From: a virus
Direction: 5' to 3' (one strand)
DNA: 40,325 nt
Virus genome (UHGV): UHGV-0382853
Made by a program: the position numbers and the translations under genes. Positions within the stretch are counted from its first letter, which is position 1. Every line of letters starts with the position of its first letter. Positions 4,348 to 39,612 of the stretch are shown in pieces. The notes under the pieces were generated by a model, which was given only the letters and a program-made list of their open reading frames with translations, had not been told where the DNA came from and did no database searches.

Positions 4348-6857
4348 TGCGGAATATCTCCGGAGAATCTCTGACGCTTCTGTGTCAGATCAAGAACAAC
4401 GGGAGAACCATCATCTTTTAGCAGATAACCAGTACCAAGTTTCACCAGGTACTGACTATCGCCGTAACTTTGCAAACCATACTGACCATGCGGTGTTTTT
4501 ATCCCTGTGCCAACAACTTGTTCATTCCAAGCCTGATTAACCTGCTTATCGAATTGCTCTGCAGACATTCCCCACGGCAAAAGAACATTCCCCATTCCGT
4601 TATAGTCATGCACGCCACCTGTAGCTACGTTAACAGCCTGTTTCCAGATATCATTGTCAATTTCGCCTGATACCACGCCTTTTTTCGCCATCACACCAGC
4701 GTAATAGTCCTTTGCGATCTCGTATGCCATTGATGCCCCCTGAGCATCACCAGCAAATGCATCCTTCACCATGTCAGAAAACTCAAGGCGGAGATCAGCA
4801 TCTTTAGGCATCGGAATACCTTTCGCGTCATCAGTACCTTTACGAGCCGCCGCGCCAGCAAGAATTGTCTGCGCAGCGGTTTCAGGAGACACGGAAACAT
4901 CCGGATTAAACCAGTTTTTTTCTGCCAAAATACCACCTGGCTTATCCATCAGTATCCCGGCAACGGCAGCAGATGGAGCGTTGGCACTGATCTGCTGTAG
5001 TGCTGACATATACACCTGCCCACCACCAGTGCTCTGCCTGATGGTATCGAGATATGCTGCCTGTTGGGAAACGGGCGCATCACGAAAGAAAACACCGATC
5101 TGATTGGCCTCGTCTTTGGAAAAGAACGTCAGTGGAGTGCCATATGACTTAGCAAGGTCACTGACCTGAGCAGCACGCAAGGCAACGCTCTGTCCAAAGT
5201 TATCCTTATTGCTCATGTCGATAGGCTTTGCCTGTCCGGCGGCAAGAGAGAACTGTACAGGATCAGCCTGTCGCTGCTTTATCACCTGACTTGCAGCCGA
5301 AACAACGTTGTCATAAAGAGCGGCTCGTGCCGCATAACCCTCCCCTGTCTCACCAGTATCCGGGCGTAATTGCTCAACATATGCTGTAATGCTGCTTGTC
5401 GGCATGTTGCGGAAAGAGCCTATATACTGTCCGGCGATTTGCGTATTTCTGAACTCGGTATATCGCAGGTTTCCTTCTCTTACTCCATAAGCTGCAATAA
5501 AATCAGCCTCACCAGGTGGGTTAGGAAATTCAACGCCACGCATATACGCAGCTGTCGCATCGCGAACCTGGCTGTCAATCATCGTTTTATATTCAGCCTG
5601 CTGCTGCCGACGCAGTTGATCCGCCTGTCGCATAAAACTTGCCTGCGCCTCAGGAGATGCCGCATCGAATGCTGCATTACCGGTATAGCGTTTGGTGTTG
5701 GTTGGAATTGTTGATAAACCAAGTGCTGCACTGACACCAGCAGTTAACTGCTGATCACTGTATGGCTGGCTACCGTTCTCATGATGGATAATGGCTGCAC
5801 AAAGCGCCTTCAGGGTATCAGGATTAGATGCATCGAGAGGCTCATCAGCAGAAACGCCAAGTTGTTCGCACACTGCTTTGATATACGACATAGTGTCATT
5901 TTTATCAGTAGGCGGTGCCCAGCGATTAATTATCTCGCTGACGGTATCAATACCCTGCCTCTGATACGACATCAGGTTCCGCCCTAATGCACGAATCCCG
6001 TGTTCAGGTGTTTCGAATTTAGCAAATCGACCATCATCACCGGTCTGGCCTACCCACGGATTAGTTTTGCTGTATTCGAGATTTCCTGGGTTATTGTTGC
6101 GTATGCCACGGGCACGCTCGGAAGAGTCACTATCTGCTACAGCACGGCGAGCTCCAGCAGCAGTATCACTTAACTCGCCATTACTTTGGATGAATGCGGT
6201 CGCATTGTTTGCCGACCACTGGGACAATGCAGCATCAGCAACCTTCTCTTTAAACTCGATTTTCTTGGCCTGGATTTGCTCGTCACTCCAGCCATGTGCA
6301 ATGCCGTAATCCTCAATTTGCTGGAAAGTTTGCTTATTAGCCAATACGTATGCGGCGTTGTCGCCATACAATGCTGCGGCATTTTTACCATTGTTCAGCA
6401 GCGTAGCCTGAAACTGGCCTTCTTCGTAGGCATTTATTTGCCCTATCTCGTGCCGCCCTGCCTGCGTAGTGAACTGAATGCGCTGCTGCTGCGCCTGCTG
6501 CATGAAAGCATTACGAGCCTGTTCATCCGGCAGCGACATAGCCAGTTGTTCGACCTGAGCATCAAACTGCTGCGTATACTCCTGACCTTTTCCAATAGCA
6601 TTTTTCCCTTTCAGGTTAAGCAATCCTGTTTCAGGATTATTCAGCAGATCACTGCTTATCTGACTGAGGTTAAGAGATGCCTCCTGAGCCAGAGCGATAT
6701 TGGCACGCTGTTTTGCCTGACCAAAAACATCAATTGCCTCTGTCCCTGCCCGAACAAAAGCATCACCAATACCTGGCTGAGAAAACGTCTGCAAGCCTGC
6801 TGACTGAACTCCACGGCTCTGAACCTGACGGCCGGATACTGTTGGTACGACTGGCAT
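4344..6857 (-). CDS. internal virion protein (T7 gp15/gp16-like), possible enzymatic domain
   Basis: Start moved to ATG at 6857, which has a GGAGG SD 7 nt upstream (track start 6932 is GTG); contains a conserved-looking motif RGIRNNNPGNLEY...W.G...FETPEHGIRA. Confidence 0.5.
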   Translation of the reverse strand: MPVVPTVSGRQVQSRGVQSAGLQTFSQPGIGDAFVRAGTEAIDVFGQAKQRANIALAQEASLNLSQISSDLLNNPETGLLNLKGKNAIGKGQEYTQQFDAQVEQLAMSLPDEQARNAFMQQAQQQRIQFTTQAGRHEIGQINAYEEGQFQATLLNNGKNAAALYGDNAAYVLANKQTFQQIEDYGIAHGWSDEQIQAKKIEFKEKVADAALSQWSANNATAFIQSNGELSDTAAGARRAVADSDSSERARGIRNNNPGNLEYSKTNPWVGQTGDDGRFAKFETPEHGIRALGRNLMSYQRQGIDTVSEIINRWAPPTDKNDTMSYIKAVCEQLGVSADEPLDASNPDTLKALCAAIIHHENGSQPYSDQQLTAGVSAALGLSTIPTNTKRYTGNAAFDAASPEAQASFMRQADQLRRQQQAEYKTMIDSQVRDATAAYMRGVEFPNPPGEADFIAAYGVREGNLRYTEFRNTQIAGQYIGSFRNMPTSSITAYVEQLRPDTGETGEGYAARAALYDNVVSAASQVIKQRQADPVQFSLAAGQAKPIDMSNKDNFGQSVALRAAQVSDLAKSYGTPLTFFSKDEANQIGVFFRDAPVSQQAAYLDTIRQSTGGGQVYMSALQQISANAPSAAVAGILMDKPGGILAEKNWFNPDVSVSPETAAQTILAGAAARKGTDDAKGIPMPKDADLRLEFSDMVKDAFAGDAQGASMAYEIAKDYYAGVMAKKGVVSGEIDNDIWKQAVNVATGGVHDYNGMGNVLLPWGMSAEQFDKQVNQAWNEQVVGTGIKTPHGQYGLQSYGDSQYLVKLGTGYLLKDDGSPVVLDLTQKRQRFSGDIPQ

Positions 6858-16470: not shown

Positions 16471-16547
16471 GTGGCATTAGCTCAGTTGGACAGAGCAACC
16501 GCCTTCTAAGCGGTTGGTCGCAGGTTCGAATCCTGCATGCCACGCCA
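16471..16547 (+). tRNA. tRNA-Arg (anticodon TCT, reads AGA)
   Basis: Cloverleaf by eye: acceptor stem gtggcat/atgccac, anticodon loop cTTCTAAg, T-arm ggttcgaatcc, 3' CCA encoded. Confidence 0.85.
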
Positions 16548-25475: not shown

Positions 25476-26060
25476 ATGAAAAGTATCCAGGACGTCCGCA
25501 GGCAAAATCTCAACGACTTGATCGACCGTGAATTCAATGGTGTTCAGACGCGGATGGCTGAAAAACTTGGAACTCAGGCAAATCTGGTAAACCGCTGGGC
25601 TCTTGGCAAGAAGGTTATCGGCGACCAGGTTGCGCGAAAAATTGAAGCTGCCGCCAATAAACCCCGTAACTGGCTTGATATCGATCGCTCGCTTTCTCAG
25701 GAAGGTTTTCAGCCTGTCGGACCAAGCGACATTGGTCAACTGGCGGCTCACAACCTGAAACGCTGGATGAGCGAAAGCCGCGACCTTTCAACGCAGGGAA
25801 AACTTCACCGCGCATCCGGCGTCGCCCAGGTAACAATCAGTCGCCTGTTAAACAATGAGGTCAGCGTTTCCATTTCCACCCTGGAGAATGTTGCATCCGC
25901 ATTCGGGCGTCACGGCTATGAATTACTGATTCACCCGCACGACCCTGCGACCATCAACTATGACCGCTCGCGCTACGCATTGTTACCCGAAACCGAGAAA
26001 GCAAAGATCGAAAGTTACATTGAATTTGTCATCAACCAGAACGAAAAAAACAAACAATAA
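25476..26060 (+). CDS. phage repressor, tandem-HTH type with no recognisable peptidase (autocleavage) domain
   Basis: 194 aa; two HTH-like segments (QTRMAEKLGTQANLVNRWALGKK and LHRASGVAQVTISRLLNNEVS); no S24-like Ser/Lys motifs seen; divergent from cro-like gene. Confidence 0.6.
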   Translation: MKSIQDVRRQNLNDLIDREFNGVQTRMAEKLGTQANLVNRWALGKKVIGDQVARKIEAAANKPRNWLDIDRSLSQEGFQPVGPSDIGQLAAHNLKRWMSESRDLSTQGKLHRASGVAQVTISRLLNNEVSVSISTLENVASAFGRHGYELLIHPHDPATINYDRSRYALLPETEKAKIESYIEFVINQNEKNKQ

Positions 26061-36320: not shown

Positions 36321-36336
36321 CTGTATAAATATACAG
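36321..36336. promoter_or_regulatory. LexA (SOS) box
   Basis: taCTGTataaatatACAGtt: exact CTGT-N8-ACAG with AT-rich spacer, 22 bp upstream of the ATG at 36358. Confidence 0.75.
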
Positions 36337-36357
36337 TTATTGCATGGAGAAGATAAG

Positions 36358-36615
36358 ATGCAGCGGTATCACTATCCACTGGAAGACGGATTTACCGAAA
36401 GGATTCACACGCCGGGAGGCGTCAGGTCACTGGTGGAGGGATCGCACTTGATGAAATTACTCCGGGATCTCGATAAGGATGGATTTAATGTCGATGGCCC
36501 ACTTGCCGAACTGACTGCACTGATTAACTACGTTACCAGCTCACAGATGTCTATGCGGGATCTGCAAACACATCTCGACTATTGTGCCGAACAATTACGA
36601 AAACAAACCCGGTAA
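36358..36615 (+). CDS. small antirepressor-like protein, paralog of the C-terminal domain of the AntA-type antirepressor
   Basis: 85 aa from ATG 36358 (GGAGAAG SD); aligns with the C-terminus of the 37766..38422 product (IH.P.GV...LM.LL..L..DG..V.G..AELT...LRD.QTH); the track start 36235 lies upstream of the LexA box and is discarded. Confidence 0.6.
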   Translation: MQRYHYPLEDGFTERIHTPGGVRSLVEGSHLMKLLRDLDKDGFNVDGPLAELTALINYVTSSQMSMRDLQTHLDYCAEQLRKQTR

Positions 36616-36622
36616 ATTTAAA

Positions 36623-36638
36623 GGCCGCAAGAGCGGCC
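36623..36638. terminator. bidirectional terminator hairpin
   Basis: ggccgc-aaga-gcggcc flanked by T-rich sequence on both strands; between convergent genes. Confidence 0.5.
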
Positions 36639-37366
36639 TATCGTTTCGCTTTGTGCTCGTCCCAGCACGTTTTGCACCATGCCATTAAGCCATCCGCATT
36701 TTGATTATTAGGGTAAAAGCTTGTTCGTTTTCTGCGGACATTACAAATTGGGCACCACTTCATATGGCGTGTATTCTTTGGGCCATCGAGACACCTTGCA
36801 CACCACTTAGTCAATCCATCTGGATTTTTTGACGATTTCCTGAATTTTTCATATGGTAGGTTTATTCTGCATCGCAAGCACTGCTTGCTACCACTTGAAA
36901 CTCTGTTAGCTGATTCTTCTTTTGGCGGCGATACAGAAGGTATTCTTGCTGGCTCTGATACTGCCTGAGGTGCTTTTTTAGATGACTGAGACGATATGTC
37001 ATCACCAGGGAATCTTCCATGATATGCCGGACGCATTGACACTCCAGGTGGAAGCTCAGCTGTAAACGGCTTTGGCTGAATCAGTTGCCTCTCTTTTGCT
37101 AACTCCTGCTGTTTATAATATGTCTGGATTACCGCACTATCATAAGCAGGAGGTGCGGAAATATTAGGCGCATTACCTCCAGTTTTTTGAAACTGAGTAG
37201 AGGTGTGTTCTATCACCTGTGTACGATTAATCGTTATCTCCCCATCTTCGGTCTTTATCGTTTTGTTATGATTAACGACCGTACGATCAGAGATCTTAGT
37301 CTTGTTCTGGTTGATAACGTAAATAATCACCGCAACCACACCAACAACTATCCAGAAAACTTCCAT
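36638..37366 (-). CDS. membrane-anchored protein with duplicated C-terminal zinc-ribbon (CxxC-N-CxxC x2)
   Basis: 242 aa; N-terminal TM helix (FWIVVGVVAVIIYVI); C-terminal repeats C.RC...DGL..WC..C; GAGGAAAA SD. Confidence 0.5.
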   Translation of the reverse strand: MEVFWIVVGVVAVIIYVINQNKTKISDRTVVNHNKTIKTEDGEITINRTQVIEHTSTQFQKTGGNAPNISAPPAYDSAVIQTYYKQQELAKERQLIQPKPFTAELPPGVSMRPAYHGRFPGDDISSQSSKKAPQAVSEPARIPSVSPPKEESANRVSSGSKQCLRCRINLPYEKFRKSSKNPDGLTKWCARCLDGPKNTRHMKWCPICNVRRKRTSFYPNNQNADGLMAWCKTCWDEHKAKR

Positions 37367-37386
37367 TGCTTTTCCTCACAATAACA

Positions 37387-37401
37387 TTACCTTAAAGGTA
37401 A
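37387..37401. promoter_or_regulatory. operator-like palindrome
   Basis: ttaccttaaaggtaa, about 21 bp upstream of the minus-strand start at 37366. Confidence 0.5.
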
Positions 37402-37479
37402 TATCTTGCTTTCAGGTGATCAAGCGTTAAACGCAATCAACCAAATACGGTTGATTTTAATATTTCTTCGCGTTTATCA

Positions 37480-37494
37480 TTACCTTTGCGGTAA
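37480..37494. promoter_or_regulatory. operator-like palindrome
   Basis: ttacctttgcggtaa at the head of the antirepressor leader. Confidence 0.5.
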
Positions 37495-37585
37495 ATTTAC
37501 ATTGCACTCCTCTTGTGCCATAGTAATCGGGCACTGGCAAAATCCAGTGCCGGGATTGGTCTCCCGGATTACTAAGTGGCGCATA

Positions 37586-37607
37586 CCACGCCAGACGTGG
37601 TTTTTTT
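37586..37607 (+). terminator. rho-independent terminator inside the antirepressor leader
   Basis: ccacg-ccaga-cgtgg followed by ttttttt. Confidence 0.55.
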
Positions 37608-37765
37608 ATGCGTATAGCACAGTCATGCCAGAATTATGGTGGGCTGAATGGGGGTCCGAAAGGACGCCGGTACCACTTAGGCCGGTAAGACCAACTCCGT
37701 TCAGTTCACCACCATCTGATTGGTCTCAGCGGTGGTGATGTAATTCGCTAAGTGGAGACGCCATC

Positions 37766-38422
37766 ATGAACGCTCAACTCATCCCCGTATTCAACGGCAC
37801 TATATCTAACGAAACAGCCCTACTTTGTAATGCCCGCGATCTGCACACTTTTTTAGGTGTTAAAAAGGTGTTTGCAGCATGGATTACAAATCGCATATCA
37901 GAATACGAATTCATTGAAAATCAAGACTATATTTTGCTTTCCAATTTGGGAAAGCAAACATCTGGTAGAGGCGGCCACAACCGCAAAGAGTACCACCTCA
38001 CCCTTGATACAGCCAAAGAGCTGGCGATGGTCGAGCGTAACGAAAAAGGTCGCCAGGTGCGACGCTACTTCATTGAATGCGAGAAACGTTTAAGACAACA
38101 AGAAACAAAAGTGGAGAAGGTCTTGTCAGGCTTCATGCCCGCCATTATGGAGGCGATCAAGCTGGAAGACAAAAAAGAATACAGCGCCCCACTGAAGCCC
38201 GGCTACCGCAGCCTGATTCATTCTCCGTCTGGTGTTCTCGGACTGACGGAGAACTCACTGCTGATGAATCTGCTGAACCAGTTACAGGAAGACGGGCACG
38301 ACGTATCGGGCGCGGCGGCGGAGCTGACCACCATGTTCTGCTACATCGTCGGTGTGAGCAAATGCCTGCGTGATATCCAGACGCACGCGGAGTACATCAA
38401 CGACAAGGCAGGGTTCTTCTGA
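37766..38422 (+). CDS. antirepressor (AntA/AntB N-terminal domain)
   Basis: 218 aa; N-terminal IPVFNGT...LCNARDLHTFLGVKKVFAAWITNRISEYEFIENQDYIL typical of AntA domain; C-terminal domain paralogous to the 36358 product. Confidence 0.7.
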   Translation: MNAQLIPVFNGTISNETALLCNARDLHTFLGVKKVFAAWITNRISEYEFIENQDYILLSNLGKQTSGRGGHNRKEYHLTLDTAKELAMVERNEKGRQVRRYFIECEKRLRQQETKVEKVLSGFMPAIMEAIKLEDKKEYSAPLKPGYRSLIHSPSGVLGLTENSLLMNLLNQLQEDGHDVSGAAAELTTMFCYIVGVSKCLRDIQTHAEYINDKAGFF

Positions 38423-38536: not shown

Positions 38537-38746
38537 ATGGGATTTTGGTTCGCTCGTACAAAAACGAGGGATAATGCACCCAGCCCTCAGGCAAAAAATG
38601 CAGAAGTTCCGGCGTCAGCGCAGGTTAACAAGCGTGGTGGTGTGTATATCTCATCACAGCAAATTTCTGAGCTTCCTGAGGTTAAGGAGATGCGTCGTCT
38701 CGCTGCTGCAATCGTTAAACAGGATCTTGCCACTGTAAGGAAATAG
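38537..38746 (+). CDS. small hydrophilic protein
   Basis: 69 aa; strong SD GAGGAGG 5 nt upstream; stop overlaps the next gene's GTG start. Confidence 0.45.
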   Translation: MGFWFARTKTRDNAPSPQAKNAEVPASAQVNKRGGVYISSQQISELPEVKEMRRLAAAIVKQDLATVRK

Positions 38747-39612
38747 TGTTGTTAGCTCTTCTAATTATCCCCATTCTGGTTAGTGGTTATATTATGATAA
38801 CCGCTAACCAGTATCATTATTTCCGTTTATACCGACATGAAGGCCAGCTTCTTTATATGAAAGTAGCTGCATTAGGTACATATTGCCTTGTTGCTTCGGT
38901 AATAATTGCCGCATTTATAAAATATAAATATCCTGATTTTCACCTAGTTCACGATATGGTGGAAACTTTTAATGTAACGTCAAAACCAGAAACAGATAGA
39001 ATTTACATGTGGCTGCTTCTTCTCTCAGCCACATCCATTTGCTTCTCTTTGTGTTATGTGTCTGTTGTGTGGGTGAAAGATTTTCTTCTTGGTTGTTTTT
39101 ATAAACGTGATATTTACGAGCAAAAAACAGAGGCAATGAAGGCCAGAGTACTGCGAAAAACTTACTCGCAAGGTTCTTTAGACTTACTATTGCTTGATGC
39201 TATTGAATCGGATCCTAAACGACCAATGCTGATTACTTTATCATCAAACAAAGTGTATGTTGGAATAATAAATGGTTCTGGTGAACCAACGGAAAATCAG
39301 GGTCCGCATCAGCACATATCTTTTGTTCCTTTAATGTCAGGATACAGGAACAAAGACAACTTATCTGTCACATTCACTAATGCTTATCCAGGAGAAATAC
39401 AGGTCAAGCGGACTGCAGCAATAAGAGGAATTAGCAGAAAGAAAGTGCCAGGACTTGAGATCATGGTGTCTATTGACGAAATAAGTTATATATCATGGTT
39501 TGATTTTGAAGTATATAAAGCAACAAATAACAAAGTAGAATCCAGGGGGCACGTTATTCGTGTTACCAAAAATGGAAGAAATATATATCAAAGAAATAGC
39601 AAAAAAGAATAG
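38746..39612 (+). CDS. membrane protein (3 N-terminal TM helices plus about 170-aa soluble domain), AT-rich
   Basis: 288 aa; GTG start coupled to the upstream stop; AT-rich codon usage unlike neighbouring genes; followed by a strong terminator. Confidence 0.5.
   Translation: MLLALLIIPILVSGYIMITANQYHYFRLYRHEGQLLYMKVAALGTYCLVASVIIAAFIKYKYPDFHLVHDMVETFNVTSKPETDRIYMWLLLLSATSICFSLCYVSVVWVKDFLLGCFYKRDIYEQKTEAMKARVLRKTYSQGSLDLLLLDAIESDPKRPMLITLSSNKVYVGIINGSGEPTENQGPHQHISFVPLMSGYRNKDNLSVTFTNAYPGEIQVKRTAAIRGISRKKVPGLEIMVSIDEISYISWFDFEVYKATNNKVESRGHVIRVTKNGRNIYQRNSKKE

What the first reader, a model, noticed from the sequence alone, without database searches (positions are those of the whole stretch)
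36638..37366. Membrane-anchored protein with a duplicated zinc-ribbon, divergent from the antirepressor gene
A single N-terminal TM helix is followed by a low-complexity linker and two copies of a C.RC...F...N.DGL..WC..C motif. I do not recognise this combination as a standard lambdoid function. Its start sits 21 bp from an operator palindrome in the same control region as the antirepressor, suggesting co-regulation with the induction switch (candidate membrane sensor, exclusion protein or toxin).
Basis: seen in the sequence. Interest (0 to 1): 0.5.

Follow-up and report, generated by a model that had tools for sequence, protein, structure and literature searches.

The report
Membrane-tethered zinc-ribbon prophage accessory protein
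This is a real, conserved but uncharacterised accessory gene of temperate phages: a protein anchored in the inner membrane that holds two zinc-binding modules in the cytoplasm, is wired to the phage's lysogeny switch, and is most likely a defence or exclusion function, though that is untested.

Summary
ORF 36638-37366 (-) encodes 242 aa: one N-terminal TM helix, a conserved juxtamembrane segment, a variable Pro-rich linker and two Cys4 zinc ribbons. All eight Cys are conserved in homologues.

The window is an epsilon15/phiV10-like (Uetakevirus) prophage, not a classical lambdoid. The gene sits in an 874-bp cassette with its own promoter, operator and terminator; phiV10 lacks the cassette.

The palindrome 20 nt upstream is one of 15 TTACC-N5-GGTAA sites in the window. 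These look like the immunity repressor's operators, and this one overlaps the predicted -10. The antirepressor has its own operator plus isrK and C4 RNAs.

The zinc ribbons are basic, sub-threshold Stc1-type modules. Elsewhere they occur in arrays fused to viral HNH/EndoVII nucleases, Bro-N, KilA-N and helicases. No catalytic His is present.

In distant relatives the gene directly follows cI or mnt on the same strand. That is the slot held by rexAB in lambda and by orf59a/sieA in P22.

Best reading (about 0.4): a membrane-tethered, probably DNA-binding exclusion or defence protein tied to the lysogeny switch. A sensor role is unlikely, because only about two residues are extracytoplasmic. No function has been shown. 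Interest is moderate.

The parts
36638..37366 (-). Coding sequence of the 242-aa protein ('X'), stop codon included
   Evidence: ORF list. 33 full-length or partial homologues. Intact in 129/5426 complete E. coli genomes. PHROG 6762 matches over the full length, E=6e-151.
37310..37360 (-). Residues 3-19: the single N-terminal transmembrane helix. Predicted topology is N-out/C-in.
   Evidence: The only hydrophobic segment. AF2 helix 3-22 at pLDDT ~90. An acidic residue at position 2 and a basic NQNKTK motif after the helix are conserved in most homologues. Topology is inferred from the positive-inside rule.
37199..37309 (-). Residues 20-56: conserved juxtamembrane segment (NQNKTK.SDRTV....TIKTEDGEI.I.RTQV.D), modelled as a beta-hairpin
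   Evidence: Conserved even in 25-40%-identical relatives; T39 and G42 are invariant. AF2 strands 30-39 and 42-51, but at low pLDDT.
36896..37186 (-). Residues 61-157: variable, Pro-rich, low-complexity linker (tether)
   Evidence: 14 Pro in 97 residues. Length and sequence vary between homologues, including PAPAPA runs. pLDDT <50. dN/dS ~1 against TL-2011b, from few substitutions.
36788..36886 (-). Residues 161-193: zinc ribbon 1 (C163, C166, C189, C192)
   Evidence: Cys invariant. AF2 pLDDT 92-97. Matches the Zn-ribbon part of PHROG 'endonuclease VII' families.
36659..36760 (-). Residues 203-236: zinc ribbon 2 (C205, C208, C231, C234)
   Evidence: Cys invariant or nearly invariant. Internal repeat of unit 1, score 69 against shuffle maximum 45. 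PHROG hits to endonuclease VII, HNH and Lar-like zinc ribbons.
37373..37377 (-). Shine-Dalgarno GAGGA, 6 nt before the ATG
   Evidence: Read directly from the sequence.
37386..37402 (.). Perfect 17-bp operator palindrome ATTACCTTAAAGGTAAT
   Evidence: One of 15 TTACC-N5-GGTAA sites in the window, against 0.13 pattern matches expected. Sites cluster around the 194-aa HTH repressor gene and at most promoters. Equivalent sites precede the homologues in Serratia, Pectobacterium, Enterobacter/Citrobacter/Salmonella-type and Providencia phages.
37395..37423 (-). Predicted promoter of X: -35 TTGATC (37423-37418), 17-bp spacer, -10 TACCTT (37400-37395) inside the operator
   Evidence: The same architecture occurs with better -35 boxes at window site 16134 (TTGACA-17-TACCTT), in Pectobacterium (TTGACA-16-TACCTT) and in L077-L083 (TTGACC-17-TACCTT). 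This is inferred, not measured. The generic scan did not call it because the -10 is weak.
36622..36639 (.). GC-rich hairpin AGGCCGCTCTTGCGGCCT. It acts as a bidirectional terminator shared with the convergent 85-aa gene.
   Evidence: Terminator scan.
36616..37489 (.). 874-bp cassette (terminator, X, promoter/operator, spacer hairpin) that is present or absent among Uetakeviruses
   Evidence: blastn against phiV10: homology stops at 36615 and resumes at 37490, with ~41 bp in phiV10 instead. Only TL-2011b among sequenced relatives keeps it.
37479..37495 (.). Context: separate operator at the isrK-C4-ant promoter (TTGATT-18-TATCAT, 37451-37480)
   Evidence: It is retained in phiV10, which lacks X.
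37531..37716 (+). Context: isrK (37531-37607) and C4 antisense RNA (37632-37716) genes in the leader of ant (37766-38422)
   Evidence: Rfam hits above gathering score: 67.7 and 61.2 bits. Ant matches Pfam AntA, E=6e-26.
25476..26060 (+). Context: 194-aa HTH repressor (no S24 peptidase domain), the presumed binder of the operator
   Evidence: Pfam HTH_3. Annotated as 'repressor' in phage ZX5. Over-expression of the ZX5 repressor (ORF21, corresponding to this gene) blocks lytic growth (PMC9782041). Flanked by operator sites 25358, 25406, 26118 and 26180.

Best explanation
X is an autonomous accessory ('moron') gene of temperate phages.

Architecture: it encodes a bitopic inner-membrane protein with only ~2 residues outside. 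These are followed by one TM helix, a conserved membrane-proximal segment and a ~100-residue flexible Pro-rich tether. At the end are two strongly basic Cys4 zinc ribbons in the cytoplasm.

The ribbons are non-catalytic Stc1-type modules. Viruses otherwise use these modules, often in arrays, next to HNH/EndoVII nuclease, Bro-N, KilA-N and helicase domains. The most likely activity is therefore binding nucleic acid, probably DNA, at the cytoplasmic face of the membrane.

Expression is coupled to the lysogeny switch. In this window and other Uetakevirus-like phages the immunity operator overlaps the -10 of its promoter. That predicts the gene is off in the lysogen and on after infection or induction. 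In other lineages it is co-transcribed with cI or mnt, which predicts it is on in the lysogen.

It occupies the genomic slot that holds orf59a/sieA in P22 and rexAB in lambda, and it has no conserved partner gene. I therefore propose that it acts alone as a superinfection-exclusion or defence protein that interferes with incoming phage DNA at the inner membrane.

Shown here: the gene, its architecture, its conservation, its cassette nature, the operator motif, the synteny and the domain associations. Inferred: topology, zinc binding, DNA binding, repression and the exclusion role.
For: Gene and architecture.

Conservation: all eight Cys are conserved, and the zinc-ribbon domain has 73% mean column identity across genera. 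dN/dS is 0.09 in the ribbons. The gene is intact in 129 of 129 carrier E. coli genomes.

Domain associations of the ribbons:
- A profile of the ribbons finds 3248 cluster representatives.
- Of 76 multi-domain hits, 47 match Pfam Stc1, 14 HNH, 14 HNH_5, 7 Endonuclease_7, 2 Bro-N and 1 KilA-N. Others carry ResIII/DEAD or SF1 helicase domains.
- Foldseek against viral models gives 37 hits at E<1e-3, many of them annotated as HNH, EndoVII or beta-beta-alpha-Me nucleases.
- Weak PDB links to PacI and Hpy99I.
- The ribbon domain has pI 9.9, with 20 K/R against 6 D/E.

Moron character: own promoter, operator and terminator; absent from phiV10. It is found in podovirus immI regions, in a siphovirus tail module on the opposite strand, and in a small integrative element.

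Repressor linkage:
- mnt->X in L017, L019/L020 and L106.
- cI(S24)->X in phiARM81mr, L109 and L107.
- X abuts cI in L110.
- P22 map for comparison. SieA biology: PMC10883804.

No conserved neighbour. No plasmid copies.
Against: - No exclusion or defence phenotype is known for any member. PADLOC finds nothing and no literature was found.
- In this window the perfect operator over the -10 predicts silence in the lysogen. That is atypical for classical prophage exclusion genes such as sieA and rexAB, although T4 imm is an early lytic exclusion gene (own knowledge).
- DNA binding rests on guilt by association. The only characterised Stc1-family domain mediates protein-protein contact with Ago1 (PMC2875855).
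- X itself is below the Pfam Stc1 threshold, 21.0 against 24.8 bits.
- The very high conservation of the ribbons and the juxtamembrane segment argues against recognition of fast-evolving phage proteins.
- Immunity regions are general hot-spots for accessory genes, so position alone is weak evidence of function.
Confidence: 0.4

Rival explanations
1. X is a membrane tether that serves the phage's own lytic programme. It would anchor replicating or incoming phage DNA, or drag the host nucleoid to the membrane. The functional analogues are phi29 p16.7 (N-terminal TM helix plus cytoplasmic DNA-binding domain, made early) and T4 Ndd.
For: Same domain logic: TM anchor, flexible tether and basic zinc ribbons associated with DNA enzymes. 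In the window and four other Uetakevirus-type lineages the operator overlaps the -10, which predicts early-lytic expression. The analogues are cited from my own knowledge.
Against: The gene is dispensable and patchy among near-identical phages; phiV10, ZX5 and PAS61 lack it. In at least three lineages it is co-transcribed with cI or mnt with an 12-19 bp gap, that is, in the lysogen, where a replication or nucleoid tether makes little sense. It also occurs in a non-phage-like integrative element.
Confidence: 0.2
2. X is a protein-protein adaptor. The tandem zinc fingers would act like a LIM/Stc1 domain and hold a host or phage protein at the membrane. That would modulate the lysis-lysogeny or induction switch, for example by sequestering a regulator, protease or antirepressor partner.
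For: The only characterised Stc1-family domain binds a protein, Ago1 (PMC2875855). One relative fuses the same ribbons to a J-domain (P0145). X lies persistently next to ant, mnt or cI. The strongly conserved juxtamembrane segment suggests a conserved host partner.
Against: The neighbouring antirepressors belong to unrelated families (AntA, KilA-N/ANT, Bro-N, pRha, P22_AR_N) or are absent, so a specific Ant partner is unlikely. Most fusion partners of the ribbon are DNA enzymes.
Confidence: 0.15
3. X is an abortive-infection or toxic effector. Ligand binding by the ribbons would drive oligomerisation of the TM/hairpin module and damage the membrane, giving a Rex-like logic in one polypeptide. 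Alternatively it is a cell-division inhibitor made on induction.
For: It lies in the rexAB-like slot after cI. It neighbours toxin-antitoxin genes in some phages: HicAB in L013 and L077, YafO in L012. It has a single TM helix plus a conserved membrane-proximal segment.
Against: There is no known effector domain. It appears to be constitutively co-transcribed with cI or mnt in several lineages without an antitoxin. It is intact in all 129 carrier genomes. No PADLOC hit.
Confidence: 0.1
4. The Cys-rich domain is periplasmic (N-in/C-out) and disulfide-bonded. It would block a receptor or entry component from outside the cytoplasm, as Cor or Ltp-type exclusion proteins do.
For: Eight cysteines could form four disulfides. 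Many exclusion proteins act in the envelope (own knowledge).
Against: Charge distribution is the opposite of what this needs: M-E before the helix, K/R-rich after it. This is conserved in most homologues and exaggerated by a (KT)8 insertion in Yersinia phage YeP5. The CxxC...CxxC units are homologous to cytoplasmic zinc ribbons of nucleases.
Confidence: 0.03

Closest known systems
P22 SieA (superinfection exclusion, immI region)
   Same: Both are inner-membrane proteins encoded on the arm of the immI region that is divergent from arc-ant. In L017, L019 and L106, X directly follows mnt, where P22 has orf59a and sieA. Both are single genes with no partner.
   Different: There is no sequence similarity. 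SieA has three TM segments and an FxRYPxEAxxFNK motif (PMC10883804; sequence). X has one TM helix and cytoplasmic zinc ribbons. SieA is expressed from the prophage, whereas X in this window is predicted to be repressed in the lysogen.
Lambda rexAB and other genes co-transcribed with cI
   Same: X sits immediately downstream of an S24-type cI gene, with an 18-19 bp gap and its own SD, in Aeromonas phiARM81mr and a Marinobacterium prophage. It also follows cI after a 55-bp gap in Acinetobacter.
   Different: There is no homology to RexA or RexB. X is a single protein. In the window it is not linked to the repressor gene, which lies 11 kb away.
Stc1-type zinc ribbons of viral HNH / endonuclease VII homing-type nucleases (Pfam PF12898 neighbourhood)
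   Same: The same CxxC-x8-F-x7-DG-x4-CxxC unit. Links come from profile, PHROG and structure searches.
   Different: X has no nuclease domain and no His in either unit. Instead it has a membrane anchor. X scores just under the Pfam threshold.
phi29 p16.7 (membrane-anchored DNA-binding early protein) and ZipA-like bitopic architecture
   Same: An N-terminal TM anchor with almost nothing outside, a flexible linker and a cytoplasmic binding domain. This is an architectural analogy from my own knowledge.
   Different: The folds are unrelated and no homology was tested. p16.7 is a core replication-organising function of a virulent phage, whereas X is an accessory gene of temperate phages.
T4 Imm (early lytic superinfection exclusion)
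   Same: A small membrane protein that is made early after infection and is not needed for growth (own knowledge). This matches the predicted timing of X in this window.
   Different: No sequence or domain similarity. Imm has no cytoplasmic zinc domain.

Membership tests
Pfam Stc1 domain (PF12898) | Score at or above the curated gathering threshold (24.8 bits) | tested here: not met
   X scores 21.0 bits, E=5e-4.
Pfam Stc1 domain (PF12898) | Tandem CxxC...CxxC zinc-finger units, linked to bona fide members through intermediate sequences | tested here: met
   Eight conserved Cys in two repeated units. 47 of 76 proteins retrieved with X's ribbon profile match Stc1 at E<=1e-3, best 2.8e-18. BFVD hits are annotated 'Stc1 domain'.
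HNH / endonuclease VII (beta-beta-alpha-Me) nucleases | Catalytic His (general base) and Asn/His metal ligand within the zinc-stabilised beta-beta-alpha motif, plus a Pfam HNH or Endonuclease_7 match | tested here: not met
   No His between the Cys pairs of either unit (sequence). No HNH or Endonuclease_7 Pfam hit at E<=1. PHROG matches cover only the N-terminal ribbon part of the nuclease profiles. In fused relatives the DH...N motif lies after the ribbon array.
P22 SieA family | Three to four TM segments and the cytoplasmic FxRYPxEAxxFNK motif | tested here: not met
   X has one hydrophobic segment only. The motif is absent from the X sequence. SieA sequence and description.
P22 SieA family | Blocks DNA injection by related phages | not testable with these tools
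   Requires infection assays.
Repressor-linked prophage exclusion genes (rexAB / sieA-type slot) | Encoded directly downstream of, and co-oriented with, the lysogeny-maintenance repressor | tested here: inconclusive
   Met in six relatives: mnt->X three times and cI->X three times. Not met in this window, where X has its own operator-controlled promoter 11 kb from the repressor gene.
Known anti-phage defence systems (PADLOC-DB v2) | Match to any defence-system protein model | tested here: not met
   0 families at E<=0.1.
Phage 'moron' (autonomous accessory cassette) | Own promoter and terminator, presence/absence polymorphism among close relatives, often opposite in orientation to flanking genes | tested here: met
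   Predicted promoter/operator and terminator hairpin. The 874-bp indel against phiV10. Opposite strand inside a siphovirus tail module.
Lar-like restriction alleviation proteins (PHROG 5558) | Full-length similarity to the Lar zinc-ribbon protein | tested here: inconclusive
   PHROG 5558 hit at E=2.7e-9, but only residues 201-241 against profile positions 7-47 of 130. No Pfam Lar hit.
phi29 p16.7-like membrane DNA organisers | N-terminal TM anchor plus cytoplasmic DNA-binding domain; binds DNA in vitro | not tested
   The architecture is analogous. No p16.7 sequence was compared and DNA binding cannot be tested here.

The most novel reading that the evidence does not exclude
X could define a new single-protein class of immunity-linked phage defence or exclusion. 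In this reading a non-catalytic DNA-binding zinc-ribbon pair is held on a long leash at the inner membrane, where it captures or senses incoming foreign DNA at the point of entry. It might also signal through its conserved TM/juxtamembrane module. That would be a one-polypeptide counterpart of Rex-type sensor-plus-membrane-effector logic, spread across Gammaproteobacterial prophages.
Probability: 0.25. Interest if true: 0.7.

Novelty: new variant of a known kind. Interest (0 to 1): 0.45.

Why it matters
The family is catalogued only as 'unknown function'. Even so, it is present in about 2.4% of complete E. coli genomes and in prophages of Enterobacterales, Aeromonas, Acinetobacter and Oceanospirillales.

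It recurs in the genomic positions next to cI, mnt or ant, where phages keep genes that decide who may infect a lysogen. If it is an exclusion or defence protein, it would add a new, very compact mechanism: a membrane-tethered DNA binder without a nuclease. It would also affect predictions of phage host range and phage-therapy outcomes for strains carrying Uetakevirus-like prophages.

It further shows that the Stc1-type zinc ribbon, abundant in viral homing nucleases, has been recruited to a membrane anchor. Finally, the work gives a concrete operator motif and regulon map for the epsilon15/phiV10 group.

Tried and rejected
- The PDB sequence profile search gave only marginal hits: PacI E=0.077 and thioredoxin-like 1v9w E=0.065.
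- PADLOC and NCBIfam gave no hits.
- A profile of the N-terminal 60 residues found only truncated fragments of the same family, so no alternative C-terminal domains were seen.
- tblastn against plasmids found none.
- Literature searches for the accession, the PHROG, TL-2011b/phiv142-3 and 'Stc1 domain' plus phage found nothing on this protein.
- I looked for a conserved partner gene. The downstream 287-aa (L017) and 269-aa (L019) proteins are unrelated. P22 orf59a and SieA show no resemblance to X.
- My first operator scan used the wrong spacer (N7). It was corrected to N5.
- The generic sigma-70 scan did not call X's promoter. I inferred it instead by comparing the same -35/-10/operator layout across lineages.
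- I rejected 'degenerate active HNH' because there is no His.
- I rejected 'membrane sensor' because there is no external domain.
- I rejected 'specific partner of the antirepressor' because the Ant families differ or are absent.
Full report
**1. Observation**

The ORF at 36638..37366 on the minus strand is real and encodes 242 aa. A GAGGA Shine-Dalgarno lies 6 nt upstream of the ATG.

The protein has a single hydrophobic segment at residues ~3-19. AlphaFold2 models this as a confident helix, residues 3-22, at pLDDT ~90. Next comes a conserved juxtamembrane stretch, residues 20-56, then a Pro-rich, poorly conserved, low-confidence linker at residues 61-157.

The C-terminal 85 residues are modelled with pLDDT 92-97 as two beta-hairpin-plus-helix zinc-ribbon units. 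The two units are a genuine internal repeat: alignment score 69, against 22.7 +/- 4.9 and a maximum of 45 in 2000 shuffles.

In an alignment of 30 homologues all eight cysteines are invariant or nearly so. So are the TM helix and the juxtamembrane motif, while the linker varies in length and sequence.

**2. What the window is**

The region matches epsilon15/phiV10-like podophages (Uetakevirus). The best match is Escherichia phage TL-2011b at 94% over the whole region. In the TL-2011b record the intact 242-aa ORF is left as a 'misc_feature'.

phiV10, ZX5, PAS61 and others match only the flanks. A blastn comparison shows that window 36616-37489 (874 bp) is replaced by ~41 bp in phiV10.

The gene therefore travels as a discrete cassette. 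The cassette comprises a terminator hairpin (36622-36639), the ORF, and a promoter/operator.

The cassette is found in 129 of 5426 complete E. coli genomes. It is always chromosomal, always full length, and annotated 'hypothetical protein'. One copy, in FDAARGOS_1285, is 100% identical. No plasmid copies exist in PLSDB.

**3. The palindrome and regulation**

The palindrome ATTACCTTAAAGGTAAT (37386-37402) is not an isolated feature. The 17-mer pattern gives 21 strand matches against 0.13 expected, and there are 15 distinct TTACC-N5-GGTAA sites with at most one mismatch.

These sites flank the 194-aa HTH repressor gene (25476..26060; Pfam HTH_3, no S24 domain). That gene is annotated 'repressor' in ZX5, and over-expression of the ZX5 repressor (ORF21, corresponding to this gene) abolishes lytic growth (PMC9782041). 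Sites also lie at the replication, recombination, integrase and tRNA promoters.

Four sites lie in the finding's neighbourhood:
- 36267, upstream of a perfect LexA box and the 85-aa gene.
- 37387, at X.
- 37480, at the isrK-C4-ant promoter.
- 38496, at the 288-aa gene.

On the minus strand, X is preceded by TTGATC-17 bp-TACCTT, with the -10 lying inside the operator. The same layout recurs with better -35 boxes at window site 16134 (TTGACA-17-TACCTT). It also recurs upstream of the X homologues in three other groups:
- Pectobacterium: TTGACA-16-TACCTT. This locus has 12 operator sites in 14.6 kb against 0.47 expected.
- Enterobacter/Citrobacter/Salmonella-type phages: TTGACC-17-TACCTT.
- Serratia.

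A Providencia phage has a perfect TTAACC-N5-GGTTAA palindrome at the same place.

I infer that in these phages X is repressed by the immunity repressor and fires after infection or induction. This has not been measured.

**4. Relation to the antirepressor**

X is divergent from ant (37766..38422; Pfam AntA), but the two are not one control unit. The 400-bp interval carries isrK and C4 antisense RNA genes above Rfam gathering scores, together with ant's own promoter and operator. All of these persist in phiV10 without X.

**5. What the domains are**

X hits PHROG 6762 (unknown function) end to end. The ribbons hit the zinc-ribbon portions of PHROG 'endonuclease VII', 'HNH endonuclease' and 'Lar-like' families. 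Pfam gives only a sub-threshold Stc1 hit, 21.0 against 24.8 bits.

A profile of the ribbon pair finds 3248 cluster representatives in 1.84 billion proteins. Many are 180-240-aa proteins with the same TM-hairpin-linker-ribbon architecture. Others are arrays of up to ten ribbons.

Of 76 longer hits, the Pfam matches are Stc1 (47), HNH (14), HNH_5 (14), Endonuclease_7 (7), Bro-N (2) and KilA-N (1). Individual proteins carry ResIII/DEAD or SF1 helicase domains, HEAT repeats or a J-domain. In the fused nucleases the DH...N catalytic motif lies after the ribbon array.

X has no His in either unit, so it is not a nuclease. The ribbon domain is strongly basic, with pI 9.9 and 20 K/R against 6 D/E. Nucleic-acid binding is therefore the most economical inference.

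The one characterised Stc1 domain, however, binds a protein, Ago1 (PMC2875855). Protein binding remains a live alternative.

**6. Topology**

Position 2 is acidic in most homologues, and the residues after the helix are K/R-rich. A Yersinia phage version even has a (KT)8 insertion there. By the positive-inside rule the bulk of the protein is cytoplasmic, which also fits zinc-bound cysteines.

Only ~2 residues are outside, so a sensor of the exterior is unlikely. The overall layout is a short external tip, a TM anchor, a long Pro-rich leash and a cytoplasmic binding domain. This resembles ZipA and phi29 p16.7 in architecture only (own knowledge).

**7. Genomic context across lineages**

There is no conserved partner gene.

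In Uetakevirus-like phages, X lies between the tailspike/small-antirepressor genes and the ejection-protein genes. It is usually beside Bro-N, AntA, pRha or KilA-N antirepressors, or beside HicAB.

It also occurs on the opposite strand inside a siphovirus tail module, near baseplate genes, and in a small integrative element in Buttiauxella.

The most telling pattern is in distant relatives, where X directly follows a lysogeny-maintenance repressor on the same strand:

| Upstream repressor | Locus and host | Gap to X |
|---|---|---|
| mnt | L017 | 11 bp |
| mnt | L019/L020 | 13 bp |
| mnt | Acinetobacter L106 | ~80 bp, with a hairpin |
| cI (S24) | Aeromonas phage phiARM81mr | 18 bp |
| cI (S24) | Marinobacterium L109 | 18 bp |
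| cI (S24) | Acinetobacter L107 | ~55 bp, with a hairpin |

In Oceanobacter (L110), X abuts cI convergently.

In P22 the arm divergent from arc-ant carries mnt, orf59a and sieA. SieA is an inner-membrane exclusion protein that blocks DNA injection (PMC10883804). In lambda the genes after cI are rexAB (own knowledge). X therefore sits in classic exclusion-gene slots.

**8. Synthesis**

X is an immunity-linked accessory gene. The wiring differs between lineages: in some it is repressed by the repressor, in others it is co-transcribed with the repressor. In all of them its expression is tied to the lysogeny switch and it acts without a dedicated partner.

A non-toxic function that is useful both in lysogens and early in infection fits best. 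That points to superinfection exclusion or defence acting on DNA at the inner membrane (about 0.4).

The very high conservation of the ribbons (73% mean column identity across genera; dN/dS 0.09) and of the juxtamembrane segment suggests a conserved target. DNA or a host membrane component is more likely than a fast-evolving phage protein.

The rivals are:
- a tether for the phage's own DNA or the host nucleoid (0.2);
- a protein adaptor that modulates the switch (0.15);
- an Abi or toxic effector (0.1);
- a periplasmic Cys-rich blocker (0.03).

**9. Novelty and verdict**

The family is catalogued but uncharacterised. No literature was found and no known defence model matches.

The domain is known and the membrane-tethered architecture is new. 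The likely role, exclusion or defence, is a known kind, so I file it as a new variant of a known kind.

The finding is real and worth a bench test, but nothing here shows function. Interest is 0.45.

Noticed in passing
window 37531-37607 and 37632-37716 (+): isrK (67.7 bits) and C4 antisense RNA (61.2 bits) genes lie in tandem in the leader of the antirepressor gene. This is P1 immI / Gifsy-1-type RNA control of ant in a Uetakevirus. The arrangement is conserved in phiV10 at ~80% identity.
   Followed up: partly
window 36321-36340 and 36358-36615 (+): A perfect LexA box (TACTGTATAAATATACAGTT) lies just upstream of an 85-aa gene. Its product is 43% identical to the C-terminal domain of the 218-aa Ant, and it corresponds to phiV10p24 / epsilon15p19. 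The main repressor lacks an S24 domain. This looks like the SOS-controlled small antirepressor that triggers induction.
   Followed up: partly
window 16134, 19276, 19294, 23013, 23075, 25021, 25358, 25406, 26118, 26180, 31405, 36267, 37387, 37480, 38496: Fifteen TTACC-N5-GGTAA palindromes are dispersed over the genome at nearly every promoter. This suggests a P1-C1-like 'many operators' regulon for the 194-aa HTH repressor. I did not find this motif described in the papers searched.
   Followed up: partly
window 38746-39612 (+), with operator 38496 and promoter-like TTGCAG-17-TACTAT: A 288-aa protein with N-terminal hydrophobic segments (PHROG 3630, unknown function) is also operator-controlled. 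In TL-2011b and FDAARGOS_1285 this position instead carries a YafO-family toxin gene, so it is another swappable accessory slot.
   Followed up: no
L109 4654-5307 (Marinobacterium sp. MBR-109 prophage): The cI-X pair is followed by a gene that overlaps the end of X. It encodes a signal-peptide-bearing staphylococcal-nuclease homologue with an Excalibur domain. This may be a three-gene exclusion operon.
   Followed up: no
L022 1900-2634 (Yersinia phage YeP5): The homologue has a (KT)8 repeat inserted right after the TM helix. Its annotated start is probably ~29 codons too far upstream, since the conserved MEIFW start is internal.
   Followed up: no
L077-L083, about -75 relative to the X start: A 14-bp perfect palindrome TGTGACATGTCACA lies immediately upstream of the -35 of the X promoter in the Enterobacter/Citrobacter/Salmonella-type versions. 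It is absent from the window. It may be a second regulator site.
   Followed up: no
L001 5438-6526 (TL-2011b, JQ011317): The GenBank record marks this region only as a 1089-bp 'misc_feature similar to hypothetical protein', although an intact 242-aa ORF (5438-6166) is present. This is an annotation gap.
   Followed up: yes
window 16471-16544 (+): A tRNA gene (Rfam 73.3 bits) lies downstream of a consensus TTGACA-17-TACCTT promoter whose -10 sits inside operator 16134. The phage tRNA therefore appears to be under immunity control.
   Followed up: no
window 37435-37456: Hairpin AATCAACCAAATACGGTTGATT lies inside the cassette, between the X promoter and the ant-side promoter. Its right arm supplies the -35 (TTGATT) of the isrK-C4-ant promoter. 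It may act as an insulator or terminator between the divergent units.
   Followed up: no
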